This document shows positions 151 through 39,326 of a stretch of DNA of 64,000 nucleotides, piece after piece (within the stretch, counting starts at the first letter, position 1; every line of letters begins with the position of its first letter). Under the pieces are notes generated by a model that ran no database searches, was not told where the DNA came from, and saw nothing but the letters and a program-made list of their open reading frames with translations. This DNA is from Naegleria gruberi (Eukaryota): the NCBI GenBank assembly GCA_000004985.1, contig GG738895.1. The stretch is one strand, 5' to 3'. Both the position numbers and the translations under genes were made by a program.

Positions 151-1704
151 TTAATTTTGTAATAATCCTTCCAAAATGGCAATGTAATGAACAATAGAAT
201 CCAAATACACATTTTCATCCAAATATTCGTTGTGGTCATGAAGCAAAACCTTGGTATTTGGCATGTAACTGTATCCGATCATGTTGACACCGGCAGCTCT
301 TGGGAACTAATAAAGAATTAATAAATATAATGCAAAATAACTTACTCTGGCATCAGTGGCAGCTGGGAAAATTCTCAATTCTGTCTTCATTCTTGAAGAG
401 ACAATATCTAAGAATTTCTTAACAGTTTCATCATTAAGATCAGCAACTGGATTGATCTTTGGTTGTTCAATAAACTTGATGGTACCATTAACAAAATCAG
501 CCCATGAACGAAGCATAATTTCAATTTCCTTCAAGTCAATATGTGGTGGAATTCTCATATCAAACAAGGCAGTAGCTGTTCTTGGAATAACATTAGGACT
601 AGAGAATTCTCCAGTTTCCTTGTTGGTATGTCCTGCTCTGAGACCTGTCAAATTGATAGTAATAACAGTACTACATTGTGTCTTTTCTCTTGGATTGTTG
701 GTTTGCAATCTCATTTGAACTTGTTGTTGTTCTCTGAATGGGAAAACCTTTTCATTGAGCAATTTGTAAATCTTTTCAGTGGCTGTTTGAGGAATGAATT
801 GAGAGCCGTGTCCAACATTACCTGTGGCAGTAATTTCAAACCAGTGAGCAACATTTTCACCATAATAAATTGGGATTATATCTTCATCCAATCCACTTGC
901 CAAACCTTCATCAATACCAAAACTAACATTCAATTCCTTCCACAATTCGTTTTGAATCAAACATTCCCATCCATCATCACCTCCAATTTCTTCATCAGCA
1001 ATAAAAACAACTTGAAGATTTCTCTCTGGTTTGAATCCAGATTCCACAAGAGCAACAAGAGCTTCCATGTAACCAGTTCCGATATTCTTCATATCTTGAG
1101 ATCCTCTCGAGTAAACTCTTCTGCCCTTTCCTGTATTTTCATCAACCATTGTTGCATCAAATGGTGGATACTTCCATTGATCCTTATCAACAGGAACTAC
1201 ATCAGTATGACTATTAATCATGATACTTCCCTTCGAAGCATCTCTTCCTTTCCATGTAAATATAAAACTTGGTTTAGCAGGATTGCAATGGAAAATATAA
1301 TACTTGAGAATGGAATTTTCTCCAGTCTTTAAATTAGCATTCACTTGCACTTCCTTGATCGGATCAGTACTATCATCAATATGGAAAACACTTCTTGTCC
1401 ATTTCAACAGAAAATCAATAGCAGTGGCATAATCAGGCTTTGGATGTTGAGTAGGTAATCTCAAATAGTCTTGGAATCGTTTCATGATATCATCACGAAG
1501 GCTTTGATCCGAGTAGATTTTACTCTTGTATTGATCGGCTAAAGTTGTTGTTGTTGTTGTTGGAATGTGGATATCTACAATGGGATCTGCATTAATTTGT
1601 TGTTGTTGTTGATCCGATCCAAATACAACATTGATGAACAATACACAACACAATACAATTATTAAAATTGATGGTGATGAATTGTAAAAATTAAATCTTT
1701 TCAT
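151..1704 (-). CDS. Aminoacylase-1-like metallopeptidase (peptidase M20 family), probably secreted; 2 exons (346..1704, 151..306)
   Basis: ORF 307..1704 (-) carries M20 motifs (SHTDVVPV, GSQDMKN, IADEEIGG) and a hydrophobic N-terminus. The frame is left at a GTAAGT donor (340..345). After a 39-nt intron (307..345, ending TTAG), exon 2 reads FPRAAGVNMIGYSYMPNTKVLLHDHNEYLDE...LLQN*, which matches the conserved ACY1 C-terminus. Confidence 0.85.
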
Positions 1705-5566: not shown

Positions 5567-6871
5567 ATGTCTCTAAAAGAACTTTATCCTGACCTTCTGA
5601 TAGATCAAGTTCTTCCCTTTCTCCCTGCGAGGTTCATACTAGATTATAAAATGGCTCCGATCTGGTTTAAAATTCTACCAGATGATTATCAACGCATCCT
5701 AACACAACGATCAAATGATTGGCTATTTACTAAAAGGTATGAAAAGCAGAAATCAAGTGTAGTGGATATTCTGTTGAAAATCATTATCAAATACAAGTCT
5801 GAATGCTATGGAAAATTTGAAAATATTGTCCCAACTGAATTTGGTTATCTTGTTGATAAATTGGAGGAAGGGAAGAGTAAGAATTACAAATCGATCAGGG
5901 AAGAACTAACATTCAGAGATGTGCAATTTATATTCGAGTTTGTGAGTCGATATAATTTCATATATTTGGGGTCCAAGTTTAATAGTATTATGAATAAGAG
6001 TACAGAACCTTTCGAGTTTAGCTGGGTTTATGCTCTTGATCCCTATTACCAAACTAATCAACAATTATTATTGAGAAGATTCAGAAAAAGTTACGATCCT
6101 TTAAGATATATCCACACAGATCTGAACTCGATTGAAGGATGTAAACGAATTCGAGGTCAATTCTATTTCAAGAATGGACACTATTGTTGCGAGCTTTACC
6201 ATGAATTATTCGTTAACATTGAAAAATTGGACAAGATTGAAGTTGACGCCACTTGGTCACTAATAATTTTGCATTCCTTGTCGTTTGATGACCTACATCC
6301 TGTCACTGACGAATACTTTTTGCAGAGATTCTTTTTACCTGTCATTGAATCTCGTCTGGTTTTCCAAAGTGAACGAGATCCCACGCCAACTTGTACCTTC
6401 GGTTCTGATAATGCTATATATTCACGTTTCAATGTTTCACTAATTCCCTCTCAAAACAAAATGGAAGTAGATGCCAAGATCAATAGACAGACTCTATCAA
6501 CCTTATTTTACATTGCTGTATGGTCTTTATTAATCTATTTTAAGCTGCTTTGGCCATTCAGTGATTATTTTGTTTTTCAACCTTACTTTGGAGAAAACCC
6601 ATTCCATTGGAAATCAATACTATTTATTATTTCAGATTTTTTTATACCAATCTATCCGGATTTTTTTATTCTAATCTATCTTATGAGAAGTATTCTTGTT
6701 TATTATTGGGGATTTTGGACAATTCATCATATTACCATATTGGAAACTCTGGTATTCATGTTCTTGTTCTCTGAACTCTGCAATTACATTACAATGTACT
6801 ATTTGCAACACGGAGCTGAGACACATCATGTTAGAACAATACCATGGATAAGGAAGAAAAAGAAGAATTAA
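5567..6871 (+). CDS. Hypothetical protein: F-box-like N-terminus plus C-terminal multi-pass membrane region
   Basis: 434-aa ORF with A-tract+ATG. The N-terminus reads LLIDQVLPFLPARFILDYKM. The last ~130 aa contain several long hydrophobic segments (LSTLFYIAVWSLLIYFKLLW, ILFIISDFFIPIY, ILVYYWGFWTIHHITILETLVFMFLF). Confidence 0.55.
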   Translation: MSLKELYPDLLIDQVLPFLPARFILDYKMAPIWFKILPDDYQRILTQRSNDWLFTKRYEKQKSSVVDILLKIIIKYKSECYGKFENIVPTEFGYLVDKLEEGKSKNYKSIREELTFRDVQFIFEFVSRYNFIYLGSKFNSIMNKSTEPFEFSWVYALDPYYQTNQQLLLRRFRKSYDPLRYIHTDLNSIEGCKRIRGQFYFKNGHYCCELYHELFVNIEKLDKIEVDATWSLIILHSLSFDDLHPVTDEYFLQRFFLPVIESRLVFQSERDPTPTCTFGSDNAIYSRFNVSLIPSQNKMEVDAKINRQTLSTLFYIAVWSLLIYFKLLWPFSDYFVFQPYFGENPFHWKSILFIISDFFIPIYPDFFILIYLMRSILVYYWGFWTIHHITILETLVFMFLFSELCNYITMYYLQHGAETHHVRTIPWIRKKKKN

Positions 6872-7021: not shown

Positions 7022-8320
7022 ATGCCTCCCCATTCTTCCCTCTTTCAAACAATCCAGTCACATTCCGATGAAACTCTTCGGAACAGAAGTACCACCAGAA
7101 AAACAACAACATCTCGGGAAAGGGAAAGTAGGAAGTGTCCACTTTGTATGAGATCACGTCTAGGGAGTTCATCTGAAGGTTGTGTTCATGCAAAGGCTTT
7201 GATTCAGAAAACTAATCTAAAGGCTCCATTCATAGGTTTACATAATAGTAGGCTATTAGATAGATGCCCTACCTCTAGTGTTAAATTTCCAGAGTTTAAG
7301 GCTTTAATTGAAAAGACAATCGAAGAGTTTACAGACTTGGTTCCAGCCAATGATTTTACAATCGATAAGAAGCCTTATAGAGAAATGCTTAATAGGCACT
7401 TTTATCAAAAGATTAATGATTTGGCTATTATCAGAGGAATATTTCCAAGAGATTCAAATGATAAGCAATCATGGAGTGATGATGCAATTGAATATGATGA
7501 CGAAAATGATGAAATTACTATTGTAAATAAGAACAATACCAGAATTGACCAACCATCAATCCCTCCTGCTAGACCTTTAAATCAACAATCACCATCCAAC
7601 ACACAAGCAATCATTCCAACCAAACAACCAAAGATCAAACCTGCCAGCAAACCGAAAACACCTAAGCAAACCACTGTAACACCACCCCTTACAACACCTG
7701 TTTCATTCACCAATACGCAACCAAAATCCCAACCATCCATAACAACCCCAAGCAATTGTACAAAGCAATTAATCCTAGATGTAGATAGTCCAATCATAAC
7801 AACACCAAAGATAACATATCCAACAATCAAGCCAGAGAAAGTCCTAACAACAACTCAATCCACTCCAAATCTAAAGAAATCTGATGATTCATTCCTCAAA
7901 CCATCCCCCATTAGTCCCGTTTCTGTAAGAAAGACTCCCACCATAACAACACCTGCCAGAAGGTCTTCTATCCCTTCCACTAAACAACCAACGTATCTTC
8001 CAAGTACTCCTCAAAAGATTCAAAAGCAAAAGATAATGCTCAAGAACAATAGAACTAAAAAGAGAGAATTAATGATGCTCTCCCAATCTGATTTTAATTC
8101 TCTACAATCTCTGGGTGAAGCACTTGTCCAAAACTGGGAAGAAAAACCACCAATCAACCAAATCAAATTTAAATACCCAGAGAATGGTAAGAAAATTCAT
8201 GTCAATACTACCGGGCTTGAAGTTATAAAGGACATGTTTGGAAAGTATGACTTGTTAGAATTTTCAATTGGTAAGAAACAAAGATACCTCACAACTCCCA
8301 ATAAAGTTCACAATATGTAA
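7022..8320 (+). CDS. Hypothetical Pro/Thr/Ser/Lys-rich protein
   Basis: 432-aa ORF with A-tract+ATG and a low-complexity central region (PKIKPASKPKTPKQTTVTPPLTTP...). No domain was recognised. Confidence 0.45.
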   Translation: MPPHSSLFQTIQSHSDETLRNRSTTRKTTTSRERESRKCPLCMRSRLGSSSEGCVHAKALIQKTNLKAPFIGLHNSRLLDRCPTSSVKFPEFKALIEKTIEEFTDLVPANDFTIDKKPYREMLNRHFYQKINDLAIIRGIFPRDSNDKQSWSDDAIEYDDENDEITIVNKNNTRIDQPSIPPARPLNQQSPSNTQAIIPTKQPKIKPASKPKTPKQTTVTPPLTTPVSFTNTQPKSQPSITTPSNCTKQLILDVDSPIITTPKITYPTIKPEKVLTTTQSTPNLKKSDDSFLKPSPISPVSVRKTPTITTPARRSSIPSTKQPTYLPSTPQKIQKQKIMLKNNRTKKRELMMLSQSDFNSLQSLGEALVQNWEEKPPINQIKFKYPENGKKIHVNTTGLEVIKDMFGKYDLLEFSIGKKQRYLTTPNKVHNM

Positions 8321-22077: not shown

Positions 22078-23048
22078 ATGCTCAAAACCTCCAATCGTCT
22101 CTCCTCTCTTGTTTCTTGTCAAGCTTTAAAGGAAGCCATCAACAAGACAAGCAATATTAAAATTATTGACGGATCATGGCATATGCCAGCCATGAAACGT
22201 AATGGCTATGAAGAATATTTAAAAGAACACATTCCGAATGCTAGATTTTTTGATATTGATGGATTGAGTGATCAAAACACTGATTTGCCACACATGTTCC
22301 CTTCTGTTGAATTGTTTGAGAAGAGCATTACAGAAATGGGTATTGAAAATACTGATCAAATTGTTGTATATGATACTGCCTTTACTTCAGCATTCAGAGT
22401 TTGGTATACGTTTAAAGTTTTTGGACATGAAGGGAAGGTTAGCTTGTTGGATGGTGGATTAACCAAGTGGAAGCTATTGGGCTATCCTATCGAAAGTGGA
22501 AAACCAAATATTACTCCATCATCTCATCCGTACAAGGCCAAATATCAATCGGATTTTGTTGCAAGAATGGACGAAATTTTGGATAATTTGAATAATCAAA
22601 AATCATACATTGTTGGTATGTAATATTATTAGTGGAATATTAGTGAGATATGATACTATTTATTATACACTGAATAGATGCTAGATCAGCTGAAAGATTT
22701 AATGGAACTCAACCAGAACCTCGTCCAAATTTAAAGAGTGGACACATTCCAAATTCTTTCAATATTCCATTCCCAACTCTTGTCAATCCAGAAGATAAAA
22801 CTTTCAAGACAGATGAAGAGATTTTGAAATTATTCCAAAACTCTGGTTTGAACATTCAATACATTAATGATAAGATTGTAATTGACAAGCCAATTATTGG
22901 AAGTTGTGGAAGTGGTGTAACTGCTTGTGCCTTGCTCTATTCCCTTAATCTTCTTGGTGTTTCTCTTGATAAACTTCGTATTTATGATGGCTCCTTCTCG
23001 GAGTACGGAAAGGAATCATTCACCAATCCAGTTTCCCAAAGAAAATAA
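22078..23048 (+). CDS. Rhodanese-domain sulfurtransferase (3-mercaptopyruvate/thiosulfate sulfurtransferase type); 2 exons (22078..22615, 22678..23048)
   Basis: Two rhodanese halves are present. The 62-nt intron 22616..22677 (GTATGT...AATAG) joins IV|DARSAERFNGTQPEPRP..GHIPNSFNIPF. The active-site loop is CGSGVTA. Confidence 0.85.
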
Positions 23049-23094
23049 GTTTCAACAAGTTCCACACATCATTCACATTTCACTCAAAAAAAAA

Positions 23095-25389
23095 ATGTCA
23101 TCATATACAGAGATTATTAGTGGGTTAAGTGTTAGAGCCTCCGGTGTGCATACAAACTTGGATGAAAATGGAATGGTGACTAATAAAGATCCAAAAGAAA
23201 GACTTTTAGAAGTGTGTAAGGATATTATTTCCTACTACAATTCCTACCAAGACAAGACACAAGATTTCTGCCAGAAAATTACAGCCATATTCGAATCGTT
23301 TGTTGCAGACAAGAGGTTTAATTCAATCTTCCTTGAAAAGGATGTTGCAGCTGTTTATTCCGATTGTCTGATCAATCCGAAATATGGTATCAAATTAACA
23401 GGACACGGAGGTATTTGGAAGTTGGTCAATTTTCAACATATTGTTACGAAGGAGACGACAAAACAGTTTGTGGATATTGGTCTATTGGACATGTTCAATC
23501 AACTGAATGCCACAACTGTTGATTGTACCAATACTTCCTACACTACTTCTATCATGAATATTTATCATGTTATCGGAACTCAGAAGGAATATGCTCGATT
23601 GGTTGTTAGACCAGTGATTGCCCTGATACTCAAGCTTGAAAATAGTAGTTATGAAGCTAGAAATTATATGAATTACTTGTTTAATATTGTTGGATGTGAT
23701 AGGGAAAGAATTTTTGAAGAATATGGAAAAGATCTTGAAGAGGTCAATAAGAAATTTGAAAAGAACAAGAATCAAACAATCAAGCAACTTCTCTTTGATT
23801 TATTTGGCACAAAGAATGCAGAATTTGTTTCCCTATTGATTGACTATGCAGGAACTAAGAAGAAATACTCCTTCCCTATTGATAATGAGATTGAAACTAC
23901 TGTTGAAGATGTGACACAATTCATTTTGGAGAAGTGTGTTATGGAGGATGTAGATGTGATTGAGAGTCATGAATTACAAATTTACGATATGGATATTGAG
24001 GACTATGTGGATTTTGATTTTATTGATTCGGATATTTTTGGAAAGGATGGTAATGCTGCCAAGTTCAAGTTGAACGTTACAATTGATTATGATAAAAAGA
24101 GAAAAAAGGAAGAAAAAAGAGAATCCGAGTTGAGAGAATTATCCGAGAAGAGTATATCTAGTATCAACCTTTCAGAAAAGTCGCTGGCAGACTCTGTACC
24201 ATCTTCTCACAAATTCGATAGCAGTATTGCTAGCTCAGGAATTGAAATGTCTAGTATGGAAATGTCCGCTATGAAAGATTCAGGAAATGAAATTTCTGGT
24301 ATTCCAATGTCAGGAATCCAAATGTCTGGTATTGAAATGTCTGGAATTCAAATGTCAGGCGTTGAAATGTCAGGTATTGAAATGTCTGGATTTTCGTCAT
24401 CTCACTCAATCTCAGGTCATAATGGTCCTCTTGAAATGCCATCATTTATTTCTGCTGCTGAAAATGCTCCAAAGGTAGAGCTAACCGAGAATAGTTTATT
24501 AGGTGGCAGCTTTGAGATTCCAGATTCATTCAAAGAACCAGTTGTCACATCTCAAAAGGACAAAAAGACCAAAAAGATTGTTAATGAAACATATCAAATA
24601 TTGGATAAGATTGAATCTAATGAATCAATGATTGATAGAAAGGTTTATATTGCAAAGGATTTGGCCAACAAATCTGGTCCAAATATTGTAATCAAATATT
24701 TACCAATCAAATCAACCACCGAATTCAACAGATGTATGAAGGAAGGAGTAAATATGATTCGTATGGGAAGAACTATTCAACAAAAGAAGATTCCACTCGC
24801 AAACATATTCGATGTCTTTGAAGAAGAAGACAAGGAGAAGAATAAGGCATCCATCAGATTCCTTTGTTTTGCCATGCCTTACTATGGATCTGGAAATTTG
24901 CAAACCTATTTGGAATCAAAGAATCAACCATCCTTGGATTGGAATTTCATCTACTCTCTATTCAAGCAAATTGTTAATGGTTTGGTGTATTTGCATGAAC
25001 AAAATATTGCTCACAAGAATCTCAAACTCTCCAATGTTTTCTTTGTGGATGAGGATAAAATCGTACTGACAGATTATGGACTAAATAGTGACATTTCATC
25101 ACAAGTACCAGAACACAATTCTCTGAGCAATGTGGAAAATATTCCAATTGAGAAATTCCAAAAGGCAGATATCTATCAAGCCGGGTTAATATTTGCCTCC
25201 CTGTGTTTGCTCCTGAATGGTAACACGGTGAGTAATTTGACTACGATTTTGAAGGAAGGAGAAAGCTCATTAAGAAATTCTCTTGGTAAAATCCCAGAAA
25301 AAGCAAAGGACATGGCTGTCAAATTATTGACTCAAGATCCAAATGAAAGACCATCCATTCAGCAAGTTGTCAATTTGTTGGATATCTAG
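23095..25389 (+). CDS. Protein with C-terminal protein-kinase-like domain predicted to be catalytically inactive (pseudokinase) and an internal MSGIx pentapeptide repeat
   Basis: A-tract+ATG at 23095. The kinase-fold C-terminus has VIKYL, then HKNLKLSN in place of HRDLKxxN and DYG in place of DFG. It has no glycine-rich loop and no APE. Confidence 0.7.
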   Translation: MSSYTEIISGLSVRASGVHTNLDENGMVTNKDPKERLLEVCKDIISYYNSYQDKTQDFCQKITAIFESFVADKRFNSIFLEKDVAAVYSDCLINPKYGIKLTGHGGIWKLVNFQHIVTKETTKQFVDIGLLDMFNQLNATTVDCTNTSYTTSIMNIYHVIGTQKEYARLVVRPVIALILKLENSSYEARNYMNYLFNIVGCDRERIFEEYGKDLEEVNKKFEKNKNQTIKQLLFDLFGTKNAEFVSLLIDYAGTKKKYSFPIDNEIETTVEDVTQFILEKCVMEDVDVIESHELQIYDMDIEDYVDFDFIDSDIFGKDGNAAKFKLNVTIDYDKKRKKEEKRESELRELSEKSISSINLSEKSLADSVPSSHKFDSSIASSGIEMSSMEMSAMKDSGNEISGIPMSGIQMSGIEMSGIQMSGVEMSGIEMSGFSSSHSISGHNGPLEMPSFISAAENAPKVELTENSLLGGSFEIPDSFKEPVVTSQKDKKTKKIVNETYQILDKIESNESMIDRKVYIAKDLANKSGPNIVIKYLPIKSTTEFNRCMKEGVNMIRMGRTIQQKKIPLANIFDVFEEEDKEKNKASIRFLCFAMPYYGSGNLQTYLESKNQPSLDWNFIYSLFKQIVNGLVYLHEQNIAHKNLKLSNVFFVDEDKIVLTDYGLNSDISSQVPEHNSLSNVENIPIEKFQKADIYQAGLIFASLCLLLNGNTVSNLTTILKEGESSLRNSLGKIPEKAKDMAVKLLTQDPNERPSIQQVVNLLDI
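24236..24400 (+). repeat. 15-nt (pentapeptide) coding tandem repeat, consensus (G/S)-I-x-M-S
   Basis: SGIEMSSMEMSAMKDSGNEISGIPMSGIQMSGIEMSGIQMSGVEMSGIEMSG. The DNA units are ggaattcaaatgtca/ggtattgaaatgtct. Confidence 0.8.
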
Positions 25390-25445: not shown

Positions 25446-26779
25446 CTAATTGTTTTTTATAGAAGAGTAACACTCGGTCGTGTAATATAGTTGATCTATA
25501 GCCTCACTAAATCCTCTTTCTTCAAAGCCTTCCCCTACAATCCAGTGAACATAAGCTCTCTTGCTATACATCTTATCAAATTGTAGAGCAAGGTTATTAA
25601 GATAACTTGTTATTGAACTGGTATTGTTGGCAATGTGCATTACATTTTTAAAATGGAAAGAGGTTGGATGAATATTTACAGGTGCCTTTCTTGATATTTG
25701 ATATTGAGCTTGTTCATTGTTGTAAGTTTTGAGTACTTTCGAAAGAGAATCAGTATGATGATGTGAAAAATCTCCTCTCATTGATGTGTTCATTGCTATG
25801 GAAACTCCATCAGCCTTATTAACACTATTCAAAGAGGATTTTTTTGAAAAGAGATCCTTAATATTGAATTCAGTACTGGATGTATCTTGCAAGTTTACAA
25901 AACTATTAGATATTATATTAGTTTCGGCTGTTACACCCAAATAATCAATGACATTATTTAAACTTCCTTCATTTGAGAATCTAATCTGAGATGTTAATGT
26001 TGAAATACTTTGTGAAATTAAATGATTCATGTCCTTGAAATTAGGATTCTCAATTCCACACTCCACACAAGCATCCAATAGTGAACAATTATCAAATGCA
26101 AATATACATTTCATTCTATCATAAATATAATTCAAGCCAATAACTGAATTGTAAGTATCCAACATTGAAGTAGAATAAGTTGCACCTGGAAAAACAGTAA
26201 AGGTTGACTCGAAACATTATCTCAATATTCAACATGAAACTCTCACAAACCTACCATTGGTAATTTAAATTCATTTGCCAAACCCCAGACAATACGAGAG
26301 GTTGATCCAGATCCAGTTCCTCCACCAAGTGCTTGAGTAATCAATATACTCTCCACTGAATCACATCGTTCCAGCATTTTCCTAACTCTCTCCTCAATAT
26401 AATTAATTTCACAAGATGACATTGAAAAATAGCCTTTACCAAAGTTTGAGGCAGCATCTTCATTACCACATATTATATTTTCCTCCTTAAATTGAACATG
26501 CAATTGATGATCATTATGCAATGAACTTTGTAGTTGTTGGGGATCGGAATCAAAGAATAAACATCGAGGATGATAGACATTCTCCACTCTAATGGATTCA
26601 TCATATAAACATGATAGATTATTAATTTGTGGATCATTGTGGATATTGCTATTTTCTAAAAGTGAATTAGTGTTGTTGTTGTTGGATTGTAATCCGTGTT
26701 CATCGGCAAATAATTGCCAGAGATCAGTGCCGATCTGAGTTCCGCAATTACCAATATGCAAAAATATCAATTCTTTCAT
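25446..26779 (-). CDS. Highly divergent tubulin-family protein (alpha-like); 2 exons (26255..26779, 25446..26207)
   Basis: MKELIFLHIGNCGTQIGTDLWQLFADEHGL, GNEDAASNFGKGY, ALGGGTGSGSTS and YVHWIVGEGFEERGFSEA all align with tubulin landmarks. The 47-nt intron 26208..26254 (GTAGGT...CGAG) gives KLPM|STFTVFPGATYS, compared with tubulin IMNTFSVVPSPKVS. Confidence 0.8.
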
Positions 26780-26920: not shown

Positions 26921-27832
26921 ATGATTCAATTCTTGGATCCAAATGTTGTGCAATTTGAAATTTTACCTCATCTCGATGATCGATCCGTTATTTCACTCCT
27001 ATCGACATGTAAAATTGTCAATCAGGTAATTTCTATTCCGGACTATATCGAAACAAAATTGAAAATAATGGATGAAGAAATTTTGAGTCAGAAATTCAAT
27101 GAGTTGGAACAAAGTCCAATCCAAGTGAATAGAATTAATGAAATATTTAGATTAGCATATTTGAATTTTAGAGAAGGAATGTTTCAAACTGAAAAGCAAT
27201 TGTTAGGAACAGTTAAAGTGGATGAGGCACAATGTTATGGAAAATTGAAATCTCAATATACTCTTTTGCAGAGATATGTTTTCAAGAATTCCGACAAATT
27301 ATCACCACACTGTAATAGGAGTGTTTTTTCAGGTTCAACAGGATTTTGGAATTCTCATAGTGTTGATTTTAAAATCTCAAAAGAGAATACTGTATATTAT
27401 TGGTCCATTGTCCTTACAGCATTTGATCGTAAGATATCAAATAGCTGGGCAATACTTGTAGGTTTTGCTGAAGAGGATGCTGCCTCATCATTATCTAAAA
27501 GCTGGATTCCATCTGGATATTGTGTCAAATCAAATGCAATACTTGAAAATAGTTATACATCATACACAGAGAGCCTTGTGAATACGGAAGGAGATGTCAT
27601 TGGAATTGAGTGCTATGTCCAAAACAAAACAGTCTATTTCAATGTTTACTCTCCTTCGAGGAACCATCAGACCTTTCAATTCAAATCTGTGAATAGTAAT
27701 ATAGTACCAATGGTATCTATGGTACACTCTCAATCACTCCAATTACTTTCATTACTTCCGTGGGATGGGCATGTGGAAAGCTTGAAATCCTTTGGAGAAT
27801 GTGCAACAAGGATTTGTACAGCAGAAGAATGA
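26921..27832 (+). CDS. F-box-like + SPRY-like domain protein (copy 1 of an inverted pair)
   Basis: The N-terminus reads VQFEILPHLDDRSVISLLSTCKIV (F-box-like). The C-terminus reads YYWSIVLTAF...WAILVGFAEE...GDVIGIECYVQNKTVYFNV, which fits the SPRY core pattern. It is about 89 percent identical in protein to 52502..53413 (-). Confidence 0.7.
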   Translation: MIQFLDPNVVQFEILPHLDDRSVISLLSTCKIVNQVISIPDYIETKLKIMDEEILSQKFNELEQSPIQVNRINEIFRLAYLNFREGMFQTEKQLLGTVKVDEAQCYGKLKSQYTLLQRYVFKNSDKLSPHCNRSVFSGSTGFWNSHSVDFKISKENTVYYWSIVLTAFDRKISNSWAILVGFAEEDAASSLSKSWIPSGYCVKSNAILENSYTSYTESLVNTEGDVIGIECYVQNKTVYFNVYSPSRNHQTFQFKSVNSNIVPMVSMVHSQSLQLLSLLPWDGHVESLKSFGECATRICTAEE

Positions 27833-27966: not shown

Positions 27967-29454
27967 ATGGGAAATAACAAGAGCAGAAATCCAACTCCCA
28001 TTCCACCACCATCTTTCGAATTAGATTTCCGAACCATCAAGGAAATTAATCAGGAAAAATTTGTGTTGCATCCAGATTTAACATTCGAAATGGCAACAAA
28101 TTATTTGGAAATTGGTGAAATTTTACAATTGGCATTGTCATGTAAATTATTGTACTCGTATTTGTGGTTTGATCAGGAAAAATTGTGGAACGCAGTGGCA
28201 AGGAGAGATGGCTTTACGATTCGACAGCACGAATGTAAACAACTTTATCGTACGTTGAGGAAGAAGGAGATTAGTTTATTGGAAAATCCAAAATTTAGTT
28301 TGGTTTCTCTCTTTTGGAAACCAGAATTTGTTGCTGAATTTGGGAATATTGAATTGAATCAATTAATTTACATATTAAGAAATCCACATTTTCACATAAT
28401 GGTTAAAGCCAATTTGATTGAATTTTCATTGAAACAATTCATCACTAGTGAGAATTACAAAAAATTGAAGAATCTTTTATATTCAATGTGTAGGATTGAA
28501 AATGGAACAAACATTATATTACCAGATGGTTATTTAGAGAGACCTCCATCTAAAATAACTCTCCTTTCATTATTATGTAAACATTTATTCGAAATACCAG
28601 GTGCTGATGATATTATTATAAGATTTGCACCTTTTGGATTGGTATCTGAGGAAGTGAACAAGTATTCCTCTGTCTTTACATTTGAAAAGAGAATCATTTT
28701 AATATTATTAGAAAAGTGCAAAAGAAAGGAACCTAATTTGGATCAATACTTTACAATATTCACTCAAATATTCGAGAAGAAATTACATTTACTGGAAAAT
28801 TTCTATCAATTCAAAGACTTATTGGACTCATTTCAAACACTGGACATTGAAAAAATTACTCCTACCTTAATCCATTTACTTTCCAGTAATGAGAAATTAT
28901 TTCCAGGAGCTACCTTGCTTGATCTACATGTTTATCATCCAAAAATTGTTGCAGAAATATCAAAGCTGTCTCATTTACCTTGCAATCACTCAATGAACTA
29001 CATTCTAAAGTATTTAGATAACAGTACATTTTCATCTCAAGAACAACTTGCTATACCTCTTGATTCTCTTTTTCAAATATGGGGAAAATATGGTAAAATG
29101 ATTTCTCAATATTATCTAAGAAGGATTTGTGAATTGGATTTTGAAAGAACTGTGAATCAAATATTGGAATGTGAGCCCGTGTCTTTCTGTTCTTTTGACT
29201 GGGATAATCAGCGTTACCAATTTCAGTATTTGTTTTTCTTGAAACAACTGGAAAACCATGTCAAGACTCTTGATTCTTCTGAATATGGATTATTCTTTCA
29301 GAAACTGAAAAAGGTATCAGAAACCATCCATCAGAACAGCAAAGGAGAGGGATACACGAAAATACTGAATTCTATTCTCTTTGAGATTGAGCGGTTTGCA
29401 TCCCAGTATCCATTCAGTAACTCTTTGAAAAAAGCAATTGAACGAGATTTTTAA
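27967..29454 (+). CDS. Hypothetical protein starting MGNNKS (N-myristoylation consensus) with weak F-box-like segment
   Basis: 495-aa ORF with A-tract+ATG. EIGEILQLALSCKLLYSYLWFDQEKLW resembles an F-box. The remainder is unassigned. Confidence 0.5.
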   Translation: MGNNKSRNPTPIPPPSFELDFRTIKEINQEKFVLHPDLTFEMATNYLEIGEILQLALSCKLLYSYLWFDQEKLWNAVARRDGFTIRQHECKQLYRTLRKKEISLLENPKFSLVSLFWKPEFVAEFGNIELNQLIYILRNPHFHIMVKANLIEFSLKQFITSENYKKLKNLLYSMCRIENGTNIILPDGYLERPPSKITLLSLLCKHLFEIPGADDIIIRFAPFGLVSEEVNKYSSVFTFEKRIILILLEKCKRKEPNLDQYFTIFTQIFEKKLHLLENFYQFKDLLDSFQTLDIEKITPTLIHLLSSNEKLFPGATLLDLHVYHPKIVAEISKLSHLPCNHSMNYILKYLDNSTFSSQEQLAIPLDSLFQIWGKYGKMISQYYLRRICELDFERTVNQILECEPVSFCSFDWDNQRYQFQYLFFLKQLENHVKTLDSSEYGLFFQKLKKVSETIHQNSKGEGYTKILNSILFEIERFASQYPFSNSLKKAIERDF

Positions 29455-30503: not shown

Positions 30504-31664
30504 TTAATTAAATATCAAATAATTGTTCAAACTATTAAAAAGTTCTGTATCCGAAGGTTTTGAATTCATTTCTCTAATTAATTTCTTCCAATCTTTACAT
30601 TTAATTTCTTCTGGTTGGTTATTTTTTGTAATTGTCTTGAATTGTTGAACCATTACTTGACCTGCCTTTTCTAGTAAGTTGATTTCTACATTTGGAAGAA
30701 ATTGAACTATAAATGGATTTTTTTCAACTAATTTCTCAATCAATTGTGGATCTTTTGAAAATTTTTCATCAACTATTTTCAAACATTTTGCATCCTTCGC
30801 CACCAATTCCATTTCAAATTCATCCAAATTTGGAATTTCTGAAATAATTACTGATTTGTAAAATCTATAATTCATTCCATTCAAAGAAATTGCTTTCATT
30901 AAAAAATCTCTATTTCCTACAAATTTGGAAGGTATATCATTAATGATATAATCATCCACTTCGACTGCTTTTAATACAACTTGTTCATCATTTTCCCATG
31001 GTTCAATATCTCCAATCCAATATATTGGAAGTCCATATTCGAAACTCTTAATGAGTAAATCCTTATTTTGGAGTTTCCAATCTAGACCTTGATGGGTTGG
31101 GTCAATTTCGATTTGTTTGGAGATGAATTCTCTTGAATTAAGTAGTGATTCGTCAACTCCTGAGAGGACTATTCCAGATTTCATGGCTTGGAGAACAAAA
31201 TCCACATTCGAAAGTAAACTATTGTTTTCTCTAGCCATTTCAGCATAATCCACAACTATATCCGTTTGAAAAACTGTATTCAGCAGTCTCTCCTCAGCAA
31301 TTTCATAAACAAGCTTTCTTTCTTCTTCAGTTAATTGTACTAACTTTCCAATAGCTTCAAAAACTAAACTACCTAATCTATTTCTCATATCCAGAGTCAT
31401 TTCCTTCCAAGCATGTTTCCAAAAATCTTGTCTTTTCAACACTGAGAAGGGAAGATCAAAAAGTAAATTCAATACTAATAAATGGCCATTATTAAATAGT
31501 CTGAAAATCCAATACGAATCTTGTGTGAAAAGTTTTATTAGAAATGGAGCGAACGGAAGAAGTTTTGATAATTGGTGCAAGTGATGATTGCTTTCGTATT
31601 GGTGCGATAGCAAGGCAAGGTCTTGAGATAAATCAAATAATTGGAACGAAACTTGTTCAGACAT
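30504..31664 (-). CDS. Hypothetical protein with DUF4116-like repeats
   Basis: 386-aa ORF with A-tract+ATG. It has repeated segments of the form D.e.VLkAv..d.y.i..ip..f..n.dF (VDFVLQAMKSG, EQVVLKAVEVDDYIINDIPSKFVGNRDFLMKAISLNG, ELVAKDAKCLKIVDEKFSKDPQLIEKLVEKNP). Confidence 0.5.
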   Translation of the reverse strand: MSEQVSFQLFDLSQDLALLSHQYESNHHLHQLSKLLPFAPFLIKLFTQDSYWIFRLFNNGHLLVLNLLFDLPFSVLKRQDFWKHAWKEMTLDMRNRLGSLVFEAIGKLVQLTEEERKLVYEIAEERLLNTVFQTDIVVDYAEMARENNSLLSNVDFVLQAMKSGIVLSGVDESLLNSREFISKQIEIDPTHQGLDWKLQNKDLLIKSFEYGLPIYWIGDIEPWENDEQVVLKAVEVDDYIINDIPSKFVGNRDFLMKAISLNGMNYRFYKSVIISEIPNLDEFEMELVAKDAKCLKIVDEKFSKDPQLIEKLVEKNPFIVQFLPNVEINLLEKAGQVMVQQFKTITKNNQPEEIKCKDWKKLIREMNSKPSDTELFNSLNNYLIFN

Positions 31665-35924: not shown

Positions 35925-38900
35925 TTAAATCATTAAGAACTGAACAAAGACCACTAAGCACAATACTTCAGTAACAAAATAGCTAGCATTAGCAACAGAA
36001 ACTCTATCCGATTTTCCAGGTGAACCCCTTCTTGATGGTTCTGGAATTGGTTGGGAAGTACTACTTTTTGGTTGTGGAATAGATGGTTGTGGATTAACAG
36101 GACTCTCTCCATTACAATTCATCTCATAAGCTCCAATATCTGGTGCCTTTCCATAATAAGGCATTCCAACATTAGTTCCCTTATCAATCAATGTAATGTT
36201 GCTGTCACATCTCAATCTAAAATCATTAGCCAAATAATCTTTGAAATAATTGGTGGCATTATTGTAATTATTTTCAAAAATGGTGTTTGGTCCAATAACT
36301 GGTTTCCAAATACCTTGGAAATAGCTCCCAACAATTGCAATATAATTGTAATCAGTTTCCCAATATGGAAGAAGATCAAACTTTGCACTAGAAGTTCCAA
36401 TATTCAAGTCAACCAACTGAATAGTATTGTCCAAGAAGGCATTATTCTTCATGGAAACACTTCTTGGATAGTAACTAATCATTGCCGAATCAAAAATTGC
36501 TTGGAATACCAATTCATCAAGAATGGATCTTGTCAACCCTCTTACTTCCTCAATAATTGAAAGACCAGCATTTGAATACGAGAAAGCACCTGTACTGGAG
36601 CTTAATAACCCTCTTTTTGTAACAGCAGTCCAATATGGATAAGCAAGACCATCTTGATCCAATTGAGGAAGAACATAATCTTTGTGAACTGACATGAAAT
36701 TAGTGTCATTAATCACATTGTTAATGAAATTGATAATTTCAGCCTTATCACCACTTGTTAAATCTGAAGCTGTAGAATAAGATCTAATTCTTGATACAAG
36801 AGTTTCATTTTTGGACCAAACTAATTTGTTTCCATTTTCGGTTGGGTTTACAATACTGTTAAAAAGAGTATTCCAATTTGAAGTGGTAGTACTATCTATC
36901 AAAGCACATCTGCTATTATCTGTCTTGACAGCAAATCTCAAAAATGATTGATAGAATTGATTATTATGCAGCACAACTCTAGCAGCATGATTGACACCAA
37001 CTGGACCTCCAATAAAGACATTTCGTCTGAAGATAACTAAACCATTTTGTTCCATCCACATGTTCTGATTACCAAGTTTGTTAATCAATACGTTATCTTC
37101 GAGAACAATGTTATTGATATTGGTAAATTGAATATTATCTGGATGTTGACGATATGAAGTTTGATGCTCAACTCGATTGTTTTTGATTAGAATATTCCAA
37201 TTACTATATGCCAATTGAGTTCCAGAACCAACCCAAATACCATTATTATAATTCTTGTAAATGTACATGTTCTTAATTTGTGAATCGTTCACCATACTTG
37301 CAAAGTTTACACCATTGTTGTGATTATAACTAATCTTGCCGCCATCAACATTAATATTAGTTGCATCTCTGAAACTAAATCCATTTTCACCATTTCCATA
37401 TGAAGAGCAGTTCAATAATTGAACACTATCAGTGAATTGACCAAAAAATCCCATTGAAGCATACTTTCTAAACATCATATCTTGAACAATTAAACCATCC
37501 CCGTAAACTATTGAAATGCCATTGGTCAAGGCAGATGCTTCAAGCATGACACCACTCACCTTAGGATCCTTATCAAGTGAAACTTGAATGATATTTCCTT
37601 CTGCGGTATATTGATTAGCACGAGAGAATGATCCAATATGATTGGCAATAGCATACGAATCTTTCAAGACTATTCCCATTGGAGTAGTAAGTCCTGGCGG
37701 AATGGCATTAATTCCAATAGTATTGGTAGTGGCATTGTAATAGATAATTGTTCGAGGTTGAATGGCATTTCCAAATTGATTGTAATGGTAGAAATCAGCA
37801 CCAACCCAGAAATTATCTGAAACAGGATTTCCTGCAGCATCATATTTGAACATGTCATCAACTTCCAAATAGACTATTCCATTTAAAGTGTATGAAACAT
37901 TCTTTGGAGTGAGATAATTAGTATGATCATATTCATCATCCAAATCATATGGAAGAGGTTTCATTGCCAAACTCAATTTCTCGCCATCTGCATAAATATA
38001 CGAAGTTGAAACTTGAAGTTGACCCTTATAGATGGAAATTGGTGTGGACATGACCTTTTCCAAATTTTTAGGATCAATAATTAATGAACCATCCAAAACT
38101 GCTGAATAAGTTTTGGAATTTCCAGAGGAAGGAGTTGGTGGATTCAAAGGTTTGATAGTAATTGGATGTTTGGAATGGGTTGGGCGATCAAAATAGATTG
38201 ATTCTCTATAGATACCATTTCCAACAATTAAGGTGTCATCTGGAAGTAACATGTATTGAGCTGCATTCAAAGTTGACCAAGCAGAAGATAGACCAAGACC
38301 ATCATTAGAATCGGATCCACTCAATTGATTAACATAGTAGGTCAATCCATTTCTGTTGTGCATTTGTTTACCTTGATAAACAGTAACAGATTGAGATCTC
38401 AAAGTTGCTCCTTTGGAATTTCCTGGATTTCTGTCATAAAAACCAAATTTCAAGATTTTAAACTTTTGAATAGCACTAGAATCGGTATCTGTTACAATGA
38501 CTTGATAATCATTAGCACTGGAACCCAATTTAGCCAACTGAATTGAAATTCCATTTGAAGACCATTCAGCATAAAGTTTGTAAGTGGAATAAAGCAATGG
38601 GACATGAATTAATGCTAATTTGGAGCTAGAATATAAGCGAACAGATTGACCATTCATAATTCTGGTAATGGACATGGTTGGATACAAACTAATCTTGTAA
38701 TAATTGTTTTGGTCAACCAGGAGAACAAAACCAAGATCATAGCTGGTAGATAGAAAACCAGTTTGCAAATTGCTTGAAAATGTAACACCATCAGTAGTGT
38801 CATACGGAGTGTCATAGGTGACAATCGAATCATTTTGATAAATTTGCAACAATTGACTAGCAATACCAACATTTCCTTTTTGGGTATTCCAACCAGCCAT

Positions 38901-39326
38901 GCCATTGCTAAAATTACTCTGCATCAACACCTTCAAACTATTTGGAGTAGGCAATGCAATAGATTGAATAGTAATCATGTGAGTAATGGTTATCTTTTTC
39001 CCATTCACATCATTATACGAAACGTTTCTCATCACCACAGTTTCGCCAATCGATTGTGTACTATAAACCAGAGCTGAATTATAATTATATAAACCAGTTT
39101 TCAATGGAGAACCATCTGCCATTGAATAAGCGATCTGAACTGAAGTTGAAGAATAGGAATCATTGAAATAGGTAATTCTTGGATTTAAAATTACTGAACC
39201 GAATTGATGCATGATAACTTTCTGGATGGGAGTAACGTAGAGTACATCCTGAACAGTTTGTGCATGTGTAACGGTATGAAAAACTGTCAGGAGGAGCAAA
39301 ATGACAAGTGGCAGTTTTGCTTTCAT
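35925..39326 (-). CDS. Large secreted right-handed beta-helix (pectin-lyase-fold, PbH1 repeat) protein with C-terminal Pro/Ser stalk and hydrophobic tail
   Basis: 1133-aa intronless ORF with signal-like MKAKLPLVILLLLTVFHTVTHA. It has a run of PbH1-like turns (NGISIVYGDG.., NGENGFSFRDATNINV, NHNNGVNFAS, NYNNGIWVGS, NIQFTNINNIVLEDN). The C-terminus reads PQPSIPQPKSSTSQPIPEP...LCLVVFVQFLMI. Confidence 0.7.
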   Translation of the reverse strand: MKAKLPLVILLLLTVFHTVTHAQTVQDVLYVTPIQKVIMHQFGSVILNPRITYFNDSYSSTSVQIAYSMADGSPLKTGLYNYNSALVYSTQSIGETVVMRNVSYNDVNGKKITITHMITIQSIALPTPNSLKVLMQSNFSNGMAGWNTQKGNVGIASQLLQIYQNDSIVTYDTPYDTTDGVTFSSNLQTGFLSTSYDLGFVLLVDQNNYYKISLYPTMSITRIMNGQSVRLYSSSKLALIHVPLLYSTYKLYAEWSSNGISIQLAKLGSSANDYQVIVTDTDSSAIQKFKILKFGFYDRNPGNSKGATLRSQSVTVYQGKQMHNRNGLTYYVNQLSGSDSNDGLGLSSAWSTLNAAQYMLLPDDTLIVGNGIYRESIYFDRPTHSKHPITIKPLNPPTPSSGNSKTYSAVLDGSLIIDPKNLEKVMSTPISIYKGQLQVSTSYIYADGEKLSLAMKPLPYDLDDEYDHTNYLTPKNVSYTLNGIVYLEVDDMFKYDAAGNPVSDNFWVGADFYHYNQFGNAIQPRTIIYYNATTNTIGINAIPPGLTTPMGIVLKDSYAIANHIGSFSRANQYTAEGNIIQVSLDKDPKVSGVMLEASALTNGISIVYGDGLIVQDMMFRKYASMGFFGQFTDSVQLLNCSSYGNGENGFSFRDATNINVDGGKISYNHNNGVNFASMVNDSQIKNMYIYKNYNNGIWVGSGTQLAYSNWNILIKNNRVEHQTSYRQHPDNIQFTNINNIVLEDNVLINKLGNQNMWMEQNGLVIFRRNVFIGGPVGVNHAARVVLHNNQFYQSFLRFAVKTDNSRCALIDSTTTSNWNTLFNSIVNPTENGNKLVWSKNETLVSRIRSYSTASDLTSGDKAEIINFINNVINDTNFMSVHKDYVLPQLDQDGLAYPYWTAVTKRGLLSSSTGAFSYSNAGLSIIEEVRGLTRSILDELVFQAIFDSAMISYYPRSVSMKNNAFLDNTIQLVDLNIGTSSAKFDLLPYWETDYNYIAIVGSYFQGIWKPVIGPNTIFENNYNNATNYFKDYLANDFRLRCDSNITLIDKGTNVGMPYYGKAPDIGAYEMNCNGESPVNPQPSIPQPKSSTSQPIPEPSRRGSPGKSDRVSVANASYFVTEVLCLVVFVQFLMI

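What the first reader, a model, noticed from the sequence alone, without database searches (positions are those of the whole stretch)
25446..26779. Strongly divergent alpha-like tubulin paralog
All tubulin landmarks are recognisable: the N-terminal GTP loop, GGGTGSG, FSV.PSP and HWY.GEGMEE.EF.EA equivalents. Many are altered. GNCGTQIG replaces GQ.G.QIG, there is an Asn-rich insertion after residue ~30, and HWIVGEGFEERGFSEA replaces the usual C-terminal landmark. The acidic C-terminal tail is missing and the protein ends SSIKNN. Loss of the acidic tail and the changes in the T1 loop suggest a non-canonical role rather than a bulk microtubule subunit. Heteroloboseans are known to use distinct tubulin sets for mitotic and flagellar microtubules. 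This copy looks more divergent than I would expect for either set.
Basis: partly seen in the sequence, partly recalled or inferred. Interest (0 to 1): 0.5.

Follow-up and report, generated by a model that had tools for sequence, protein, structure and literature searches.

The report
Divergent alpha-like tubulin of Naegleria gruberi
This is a real, intact gene for a very divergent alpha-tubulin-like protein in the amoeba Naegleria gruberi; it is almost certainly one of that genome's already catalogued but never studied "bonus" tubulins, and it has lost several features needed to build ordinary microtubules.

Summary
Window 25446-26779 (minus strand) encodes a two-exon, 428-aa tubulin-fold protein (PF00091 E 1e-38; AlphaFold pTM 0.84; TM about 0.85 to solved tubulins). 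The window is N. gruberi NEG-M, because a neighbouring gene is 504/504 identical to a RefSeq protein.

The protein is alpha-derived. Alpha references score above beta and far above gamma, epsilon and delta, and it groups with alpha in 99-100% of NJ bootstraps. It is only 27-30% identical to any canonical, flagellar or mitotic alpha-tubulin. It sits on a long branch with other N. gruberi-only paralogs (XP_002679827.1 at 61-63%, XP_002672843.1, XP_002679287.1).

Most of the GTP pocket and helix H11' are kept. The M-loop and H10-S9 loop are shortened, NLVPYPR and the D251/E254 pair are not recognisably kept, Pfam Tubulin_C is not detected, and there is no acidic tail.

It is probably functional. 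The ORF is intact in two strains (pN/pS 0.30), the intron position is apparently shared with the paralog, and the regions that lost canonical motifs are as conserved between paralogs as the GTPase domain.

It is not new: it is very likely JGI 72133, one of the seven "bonus" alpha-tubulins (Fritz-Laylin 2010; Fulton 2022; Velle 2022 tree). Its function and expression remain untested.

The parts
26255..26779 (-). Exon 1 (codons 1-175): start codon, T1 loop, long Asn-rich H1-S2 loop, T2-T4 loops, H4, ending ...EFKLPM
   Evidence: ORF list and sequence; translation; PF00091 match to residues 3-222
26208..26254 (-). Preferred intron, 47 nt, GTAGGT...TTTCGAG, phase 0
   Evidence: It restores strand S5 (STFTVFP), homologous to SCFSIFP in P0002 and EFSIYP in alpha. 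The Pfam score is higher than with the alternative (121.4 vs 133.8 bits). P0002 carries 14 extra residues exactly here, starting with V (a GTN codon), which fits an unspliced in-frame 42-nt intron if its last codon is AAG. This rests on homology, with no RNA evidence.
26186..26250 (-). Alternative frame-compatible GT..AG pair (65 nt, good polypyrimidine-CAG acceptor); it would delete strand S5 and give 422 aa
   Evidence: It is considered less likely, but only RNA data can exclude it.
25446..26207 (-). Exon 2 (codons 176-428 plus the TAG stop at 25448-25446): S5, T5, H5-H7, the degenerate T7/H8/M-loop region, S8-S10, H11, H11', H12; no acidic tail
26729..26752 (-). T1 loop GNCGTQIG (canonical alpha is GQAGVQIG): Q11N and A12C
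26630..26683 (-). Asn-rich extension of the H1-S2 loop (residues 33-50), predicted to be disordered
   Evidence: pLDDT below 50 for residues 33-50; insert relative to the alpha HMM and to P0002
26306..26326 (-). T4 signature GGGTGSG, fully conserved
25500..25547 (-). H11'/H11-H12 segment HWIVGEGFEERGFSEA, the segment best conserved with alpha after T4 (79% over alpha residues 401-414); W407 is kept, with F404Y, Y408I and M413F
   Evidence: the role of H11' at the alpha-beta intradimer contact is taken from PMC12934608

Best explanation
The locus is an intact two-exon gene of Naegleria gruberi NEG-M. It is very likely JGI model 72133, one of the genome's seven catalogued 'bonus' alpha-tubulins. 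It encodes a 428-aa alpha-tubulin-derived paralog from an expansion so far seen only in N. gruberi. Shown here: it adopts the tubulin fold, it is alpha-derived, it lies outside the canonical, flagellar and mitotic alpha clades, and it is under weak to moderate purifying selection. Inferred: it probably still binds GTP, because D69, GGGTGSG, S178/T179, N206 and N228 are kept and the other changes are conservative (Q11N, E71D, Y224F) or modest (N101S). It may still pair through its nucleotide-side face with a beta-type partner, because H11' and the H11-H12 loop are the parts best preserved with alpha. It can hardly make normal lateral contacts or normal contacts on its T7/H8 face. The M-loop is 7 residues shorter, the H10-S9 loop 8 residues shorter, NLVPYPR is gone, and D251/E254 read as S/N in the helix-H8 register. 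It also lacks the acidic tail that motors, MAPs and modifying enzymes use. The most likely role is therefore a specialised, non-bulk subunit: a non-polymerising or lattice-terminating alpha-like tubulin, possibly partnered with one of the equally divergent beta-like paralogs. It is unlikely to be a building block of flagellar or spindle microtubules.
For: Gene and fold: PF00091 E 1.2e-38; pTM 0.84, pLDDT 76.5; TM 0.82-0.87 to solved tubulins. Organism: (504/504 identity to a RefSeq N. gruberi protein once a 39-nt intron is skipped). Alpha origin; alpha 152-177, beta 126-143, gamma 94, epsilon 73-83, delta 65 bits; alpha+X in 98.7% and 100% of bootstraps, canonical alpha excluding X in 100% and 97%, X with the mitotic clade 0%; alpha HMM 200.7 vs beta HMM 178.7 bits; alpha-length S9-S10 loop; alpha-type D98/A99 and T179. 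Restricted distribution: an exhaustive phmmer over 1.84 billion cluster representatives found only a strain variant and XP_002679827.1 as close relatives, and the next genuine relatives are again N. gruberi divergent alphas. Constraint: the ORF is intact in two strains, with pN/pS 0.30 (7 nonsynonymous, 6 synonymous; one-sided P 0.03). Paralog identity is 55-79% in every region, including those that lost canonical motifs, and the intron position appears shared. Lost assembly features: and no PF03953 hit for this protein or its two paralogs. Literature: Fulton 2022 independently judged the 'bonus' tubulins unlikely to assemble into microtubules, and the Velle 2022 ML tree has the same long-branch N. 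gruberi clade.
Against: Constraint is relaxed compared with the neighbouring kinase (pN/pS 0.30 vs 0.06), and it rests on only 13 substitutions. The alignment between T7 and the M-loop is ambiguous, since MAFFT and hmmalign place the gaps differently, so the D251/E254 calls are tentative. In Tetrahymena, divergent beta-like tubulins with altered GTP-site and interface residues do enter nuclear and spindle microtubules (PMC3382179), so divergence alone does not prove that a tubulin cannot assemble. No partner was identified. The tree is neighbour-joining only, and long-branch effects could distort where the clade attaches.
Confidence: 0.5

Rival explanations
1. It is a decaying duplicate: a young, lineage-specific alpha-tubulin copy under relaxed selection with no current function, still open by chance.
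For: It has long branches and lost motifs. pN/pS is about five times that of the neighbouring gene, and substitution density is higher (13 in 1188 nt vs 5 in 843 nt). No ortholog turned up among annotated N. fowleri, N. lovaniensis, Willaertia or Acrasis proteins. The gene has no protein record in the large protein collection apart from a metagenome ORF. There is no expression evidence.
Against: A 1.29-kb ORF with a usable intron is intact in two strains. The paralog XP_002679827.1, at a Kimura distance of about 0.5 per site, is also fully open, with the same derived blocks conserved (NPNFK.MNHLISQ.ISTLTSQIRF, NSFVNLQDTS, NVMHIANNT.SITSYL, ECYSS). Conservation between the paralogs is even across domains, whereas decay would erode regions unevenly and break the frame. 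pN/pS is significantly below 1 (P 0.03). AlphaFold models it as a compact tubulin.
Confidence: 0.2
2. It is a genuine microtubule subunit used in one specialised array (basal body, rootlet-associated, cortical or a subset of spindle microtubules), as the Tetrahymena beta-like tubulins are.
For: Tubulin fold, GTP pocket and H11' are retained. There is precedent that noncanonical tubulins lacking canonical motifs enter specific arrays (PMC3382179). Fulton 2022 raises exactly this possibility for the 'bonus' genes.
Against: The M-loop and H10-S9 loop are shortened and the NLVPYPR motif is lost. Identity to alpha in the intermediate domain is 17% with 20 gap positions, and there is no tail. The documented BLTs and Naegleria mitotic tubulins are far less divergent, the mitotic ones being 57-58% identical to human alpha.
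Confidence: 0.2
3. It is a member of a conserved non-alpha/beta tubulin family (gamma, delta, epsilon, zeta or eta) that was misread as alpha-like.
For: There is no acidic tail and Pfam Tubulin_C is not detected. Human delta also lacks the Tubulin_C hit.
Against: Scores against verified human and vertebrate gamma, delta and epsilon are 94, 65 and 73-83 bits, against 152-177 for alpha. It never groups with them in 300 bootstraps. N. gruberi is reported to have separate single gamma, delta and epsilon genes. Zeta and eta references were not available, so those two were not tested directly.
Confidence: 0.02

Closest known systems
N. gruberi 'bonus' highly divergent alpha-tubulins (Fritz-Laylin et al. 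2010, Fig. S4B as described by Fulton 2022, PMC9081340; long-branch N. gruberi leaves 65597, 71268, 72133, Contig_6773, 51830, 88206, 88213 in the Velle 2022 tree, PMC9036621 Data S3)
   Same: It comes from the same genome and forms a clade with XP_002679827.1 (61-63% identity), XP_002672843.1 (JGI 88213) and XP_002679287.1. It shows the same kind of gaps and insertions and the same loss of the Tubulin_C signature. The published sister pair 72133 + Contig_6773 (1314 nt = 437 aa + stop = XP_002679827.1) matches the pair found here.
   Different: Nothing essential differs; this is very probably JGI 72133 itself. That identification is indirect, and this gene has no protein record in the collection searched. 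Its gene model is refined here (47-nt intron).
Naegleria mitotic alpha-tubulins (alpha-6 of strain NB-1; JGI 58607 and 55745; Velle 2022)
   Same: They are alpha-derived, divergent, encoded in the same organism, and share F404Y in H11'.
   Different: The mitotic alphas are 57-58% identical to human alpha, conserved in N. fowleri and Acrasis, keep the M-loop, NLVPYPR, D251/E254 and an acidic tail, and have H407/F408. This protein is 27-30% identical, keeps W407, lacks those features, and never groups with them (0 of 300 bootstraps).
Tetrahymena noncanonical alpha-like and beta-like tubulins (BLT1, BLT4; Pucciarelli 2012, PMC3382179)
   Same: They are lineage-specific divergent paralogs with substitutions in GTP-site and interface residues and without canonical targeting or modification motifs.
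   Different: BLT1 and BLT4 have been shown to enter nuclear and spindle microtubules. Nothing is known for this protein, and its loop deletions are more severe. The two arose independently.
Canonical alpha-tubulin (e.g. human TUBA1A, N. gruberi flagellar JGI 56236)
   Same: Fold, GGGTGSG, most nucleotide contacts, the alpha-length S9-S10 loop, alpha-type D98/A99/T179, and the H11-H11' motif MY.KRA.VHW.VGEG.EE.
   Different: 27-29% identity; N101S; a shortened T7 loop, M-loop and H10-S9 loop; no K40; no acidic tail or terminal Tyr; no Pfam Tubulin_C hit.

Membership tests
Tubulin/FtsZ superfamily | GTPase-domain profile (Pfam PF00091) and the GGGTGSG signature | tested here: met
   PF00091 at 133.8 bits, E 1.2e-38, against a cut-off of 33; GGGTGSG is intact
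Tubulin/FtsZ superfamily | Two-domain tubulin fold | tested here: met
   AlphaFold pTM 0.84; Foldseek TM 0.82-0.87 to alpha- and beta-tubulin chains, E about 1e-31
Alpha-tubulin (canonical) | Closer to alpha than to any other tubulin family by score and by tree | tested here: met
   The best 60 PDB hits are all alpha; alpha HMM 200.7 vs beta HMM 178.7 bits; alpha+X in 98.7-100% of NJ bootstraps. It falls outside the canonical alpha clade, which is itself supported at 97-100%.
Alpha-tubulin (canonical) | Alpha-specific extra residues in the S9-S10 loop (about 8 more than beta) | tested here: met
   The loop is of alpha length, with 1 gap against 8 in beta
Alpha-tubulin (canonical) | T7/H8 catalytic pair D251/E254 that activates GTP hydrolysis on the adjoining beta subunit | tested here: inconclusive
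   MAFFT and the register of the predicted H8 helix give S and N (D in the paralog). hmmalign places the gaps differently. This leans towards not met.
Alpha-tubulin (canonical) | Recognisable tubulin C-terminal/intermediate domain (Pfam PF03953), including NLVPYPR and a full-length M-loop | tested here: not met
   There is no PF03953 hit at E up to 1. The intermediate domain is 17% identical to human alpha with 20 gap positions, the M-loop is 7 residues shorter and the H10-S9 loop 8 residues shorter.
Alpha-tubulin (canonical) | Acidic C-terminal tail | tested here: not met
   The protein ends ...ECYSSIKNN directly after H12
Naegleria mitotic alpha-tubulins | Membership of the heterolobosean mitotic clade; about 57% identity to human alpha; H11' with Y404/H407/F408 | tested here: not met
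   0 of 300 bootstraps group it with the mitotic clade; 27-30% identity; H11' reads Y404/W407/I408 (motif definition)
Gamma-, delta-, epsilon-tubulin | Higher similarity to, and grouping with, verified family members | tested here: not met
   94, 65 and 73-83 bits against 152-177 for alpha; it never groups with them. The references were verified: gamma against PDB 7qj0, delta and epsilon by database names.
Zeta-/eta-tubulin | Grouping with zeta or eta references | not tested
N. gruberi 'bonus' divergent tubulins | Encoded in the N. gruberi NEG-M genome, clearly tubulin, far more divergent than the flagellar and mitotic sets, with gaps and insertions | tested here: met
   genome identity; divergence and clade; published description and tree

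The most novel reading that the evidence does not exclude
This protein and its sister XP_002679827.1 would define a Naegleria-specific class of alpha-like tubulin that has stopped forming a lattice. It would still fold, bind GTP and dock onto a beta-type subunit through a preserved H11'/nucleotide-side face. But it lacks lateral (M-loop) and T7-face contacts and the hydrolysis-activating glutamate. It would then act as a terminator or regulator of microtubule ends, or as half of a non-microtubule heterodimer with one of the 'bonus' beta-like proteins.
Probability: 0.25. Interest if true: 0.55.

Novelty: already known. Interest (0 to 1): 0.3.

Why it matters
Naegleria is the organism that prompted the multi-tubulin hypothesis. 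Its flagellar and mitotic tubulin sets are now well studied, but the third set, seven alpha-like and five beta-like 'bonus' genes, has no known expression pattern or function. This analysis adds three things for one of them. First, a corrected gene model and evidence of purifying selection. Second, a residue-level picture: the nucleotide pocket and H11' are kept, while lateral and T7-face elements and the tail are lost. Third, a testable hypothesis, that it is a non-lattice alpha-like subunit. If that were confirmed, it would be a natural example of a tubulin repurposed away from polymer building. As it stands, this is a correct re-identification of a catalogued gene, not a discovery.

Tried and rejected
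1. My first gene model, with a 65-nt intron (422 aa), was rejected in favour of the 47-nt intron after comparison with the paralog showed that strand S5 lay inside the supposed intron.

2. I first took XP_002679827.1 for an ortholog from another species. That was rejected when the flanking M20 peptidase proved 504/504 identical to an N. gruberi RefSeq protein. The window is NEG-M and the two tubulins are paralogs.

3. Hits P0019 and P0020 (213 and 196 bits) looked like intermediate relatives. They are chimeric or duplicated canonical alpha-tubulin models.

4. A scan of JGI metagenome contigs for relatives found none.

5. Exact-sequence look-ups of XP_002679827.1 and of the exon-2 ORF found no contigs, and the spliced protein could not be submitted. 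The splice junction therefore could not be checked against transcript assemblies.

6. Expression data were out of reach. The 2024 RNA-seq preprint has no supplements held, and the 2010 microarray and genome papers are not held.

7. The Biopython rooted-clade support values were artefacts of rooting. Support was recomputed as unrooted splits.

8. A second tubulin gene in the window, as a possible partner, was looked for and not found.

Full report
THE GENE
The interval 25446-26779 lies on the minus strand and is covered by two ORFs. The ATG at 26779 opens MKELIFLHIGNCGTQIG..., the usual tubulin N-terminus. The TAG at 25448-25446 follows ...ECYSSIKNN.

The two ORFs are joined by a short intron, and two GT..AG pairs keep the frame. 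I first used 26250-26186 (65 nt, 422 aa). Alignment with the closest relative then showed that this removes the core strand S5. The sequence STFTVFP lies in frame with exon 2 and matches SCFSIFP in the relative and EFSIYP in canonical alpha-tubulin.

The intron 26254-26208 (47 nt, GTAGGT...CGAG, phase 0) keeps that strand and gives 428 aa. It also raises the Pfam PF00091 score from 121.4 to 133.8 bits. Such short introns are used in this genome: the neighbouring M20 peptidase gene has an annotated 39-nt intron (GTAAGT...TTATTAG). No RNA data were available, so the 47-nt model rests on homology.

THE ORGANISM
The ORF at 307-1704 (minus strand) matches an N. gruberi RefSeq protein over all 504 residues once its 39-nt intron is skipped. 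The window is therefore N. gruberi NEG-M, on a scaffold of 333,733 bp. That scaffold also carries another divergent alpha-tubulin, XP_002672843.1 (JGI 88213), outside this window.

A metagenome contig (ENA ERZ929261) is 99.16% identical over 2143 bp with no gaps. It provides a second strain for comparison.

CHECKING THE OBSERVATION
- GNCGTQIG
- the Asn-rich H1-S2 loop, about 8 residues longer than in canonical alpha and predicted to be disordered (pLDDT below 50 for residues 33-50)
- GGGTGSG
- FTVFPGATYSTS
- HWIVGEGFEERGFSEA
- a C-terminus without an acidic tail

The statistics leave no doubt that this is a tubulin. PF00091 scores E 1.2e-38. The 60 best PDB sequences are all alpha-tubulins at E about 3e-46. 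The AlphaFold model has pTM 0.84 and mean pLDDT 76.5, with the full tubulin succession of strands and helices. Foldseek gives TM 0.82-0.87 to solved tubulin chains.

WHICH TUBULIN FAMILY
I assembled reference sequences from three sources:
- alpha and beta tubulins, including the N. gruberi and N. fowleri flagellar and mitotic isotypes, from Velle et al. 2022 Data S5 and S6
- human gamma, verified as identical to PDB 7qj0
- vertebrate delta and epsilon, retrieved and named by the protein database

Family | BLASTP score (bits)
alpha | 152-177
beta | 126-143
gamma | 94
epsilon | 73-83
delta | 65

phmmer ranks the families the same way. Family HMMs give 200.7 bits for alpha and 178.7 for beta.

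In neighbour-joining trees with 300 bootstraps:
- This protein, XP_002679827.1 and XP_002672843.1 form a clade in 100% of replicates.
- That clade joins alpha in 98.7% (100% when further divergent alphas are added).
- It never joins beta, and never nests in the Naegleria mitotic clade.
- Canonical alpha excluding it is supported at 97-100%.
- XP_002679287.1, another N. gruberi divergent alpha, joins the clade in 94%.

Alpha-type characters are present: the alpha-length S9-S10 loop, D98/A99 and T179.

Identity to any canonical, flagellar or mitotic alpha is only 27-30%. The flagellar and mitotic sets are 79-85% and 57-58% identical to human alpha.

Zeta and eta could not be tested.

DISTRIBUTION
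An exhaustive phmmer search of 1.84 billion cluster representatives found only two close relatives: the strain variant and XP_002679827.1, at 511 and 491 bits. Scores then drop to about 150-165 bits for ordinary alpha-tubulins. Two higher hits in between are chimeric canonical alpha models.

No N. fowleri, N. lovaniensis, Willaertia or Acrasis protein appeared, although proteins of N. lovaniensis, Willaertia and Acrasis are in the database. Unannotated genomic copies in those species were not searched for.

WHAT IS KEPT AND WHAT IS LOST
Identity to human alpha by region:

Region | Identity to human alpha
N-terminal GTPase domain | 28%
Intermediate domain | 17%, with 20 gap positions
H11-H12 | 42%
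H11-H12 loop with H11' (alpha residues 401-414) | 79%

Nucleotide contacts D69, G143-G146, S178/T179, N206 and N228 are kept. The changes are Q11N, E71D, N101S and Y224F.

H11' is reported as the most conserved alpha element and as a contact with beta helix H8 within the dimer (PMC12934608). It reads Y404, W407, I408 here. Tryptophan 407, which the mitotic alphas replaced by His, is retained.

The features lost or altered are:
- The T7 loop is shorter.
- In the register given by MAFFT and by the predicted H8 helix (residues 258-265), D251/E254 read as S/N, and as S/D in the paralog. hmmalign places the gaps differently, so this call is tentative.
- The NLVPYPR motif is gone.
- The M-loop lacks 7 residues and the H10-S9 loop lacks 8.
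- Pfam Tubulin_C (PF03953) is not detected in this protein or in its two paralogs.
- The acidic tail is absent.

From general knowledge of the microtubule lattice (Nogales, Lowe and colleagues), the M-loop makes the main lateral contact. T7/H8 and the H10-S9 loop lie on the longitudinal face opposite the nucleotide. The erosion is therefore concentrated on lattice-forming surfaces, while the nucleotide side is comparatively spared. That last step is an inference, not a measurement.

IS IT ALIVE?
Between the two strains the coding sequence has 6 synonymous and 7 nonsynonymous differences. That gives pN/pS 0.30, with a one-sided binomial P of 0.03 against neutrality. Most of the replacements are conservative. 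The convergent kinase gene next door has pN/pS 0.06.

The paralog XP_002679827.1 is fully open at a Kimura distance of about 0.5. It carries 14 extra residues (VSKYGHDIVDTMIK) exactly at this gene's intron site. Those residues start with V (a GTN codon), which fits an unspliced in-frame 42-nt intron if the last codon is AAG. The intron position therefore appears to be shared.

Identity between the two paralogs is even across the protein: 55% in the GTPase core, 56% across T7 to the M-loop, 66% in S9-S10, 79% in H6-H7 and 71% in H11-H12. The regions that no longer look like alpha are thus conserved as a new state and are not drifting. This argues for a functional protein under somewhat relaxed constraint. 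It does not show expression.

WHAT IS KNOWN
The N. gruberi genome paper listed 13 alpha and 9 beta genes, 'some highly divergent' (quoted in Velle 2022). [quoted passage not shown] He also notes single conserved gamma, delta and epsilon genes.

The ML tree of Velle et al. contains exactly seven long-branch N. gruberi alpha leaves. Among them is the sister pair 72133 (scaffold_51) and Contig_6773 of 1314 nt, with support 100. 1314 nt is 437 codons plus a stop, which is the length of XP_002679827.1. No third close relative exists in the databases. This gene is therefore very probably JGI 72133.

The gene is thus already catalogued, although no matching protein record was found in the collection searched. 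The closest functional analogy is the Tetrahymena beta-like tubulins, which do enter nuclear and spindle microtubules (PMC3382179). That is a reminder that divergence alone does not prove a tubulin cannot assemble.

VERDICT
The gene is a known but unstudied member of the N. gruberi divergent alpha-like tubulins.

The best-supported reading is a functional, GTP-binding, non-bulk alpha-like subunit that cannot make a normal lattice (confidence about 0.5). The rivals are a decaying duplicate (0.2), a specialised structural isotype (0.2) and another tubulin family (0.02). Interest is modest. The useful outputs are the corrected gene models, the residue-level map and a concrete set of tests.

Noticed in passing
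window 154-1704 (-), intron 307-345: The M20/aminoacylase-like peptidase gene is identical to an N. gruberi RefSeq protein. It contains an annotated 39-nt intron (GTAAGT...TTATTAG), showing that very short introns are used in this genome.
   Followed up: yes
XP_002679827.1 (P0002), residues about 172-185: This RefSeq paralog ('LOW QUALITY PROTEIN') carries 14 extra residues, VSKYGHDIVDTMIK, exactly where the window gene has its intron. They look like an unspliced in-frame 42-nt intron, so the true protein would be 423 aa.
   Followed up: partly
window 25446-26779: No protein matching this gene exists in the 15-billion-sequence collection apart from a 239-aa ORF from a metagenome (ENA ERZ929261, 99.16% nucleotide identity). 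The gene seems to be missing from the GenBank/RefSeq annotation of NEG-M, although a JGI model (72133) very probably covers it.
   Followed up: partly
window 22927-25389 (+): This protein kinase gene (Pkinase domain at residues 583-816) has a run of MSGI(E/Q) peptide repeats before the kinase domain. It converges on the tubulin gene, with 56 bp between the stop codons, and is strongly constrained between strains (pN/pS 0.06).
   Followed up: partly
window 26921-27832 (+): A 303-aa ORF is transcribed divergently from the tubulin gene, with 141 bp between the two ATGs, so they may share a promoter region. It has a weak SPRY match (E 3e-4, below Pfam's cut-off) and an F-box-like N-terminus by eye.
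   Followed up: no
window 30504-31664 (-), 57696-59141 (+), 12688-15636 (+): Other recognisable genes in the window are a DUF4116-repeat protein, a leucine-rich-repeat protein and an EPL1 (enhancer of polycomb-like) domain protein. Several long ORFs (5567-6871, 7022-8320, 27967-29454, 35925-39326, 47461-49644, 49782-51581) have no Pfam match.
   Followed up: no
protein ids P0019, P0020: Two database 'tubulins' that outscored real relatives are chimeric or duplicated canonical alpha-tubulin gene models (1115 and 577 aa). Their scores are inflated by repeated domains.
   Followed up: yes
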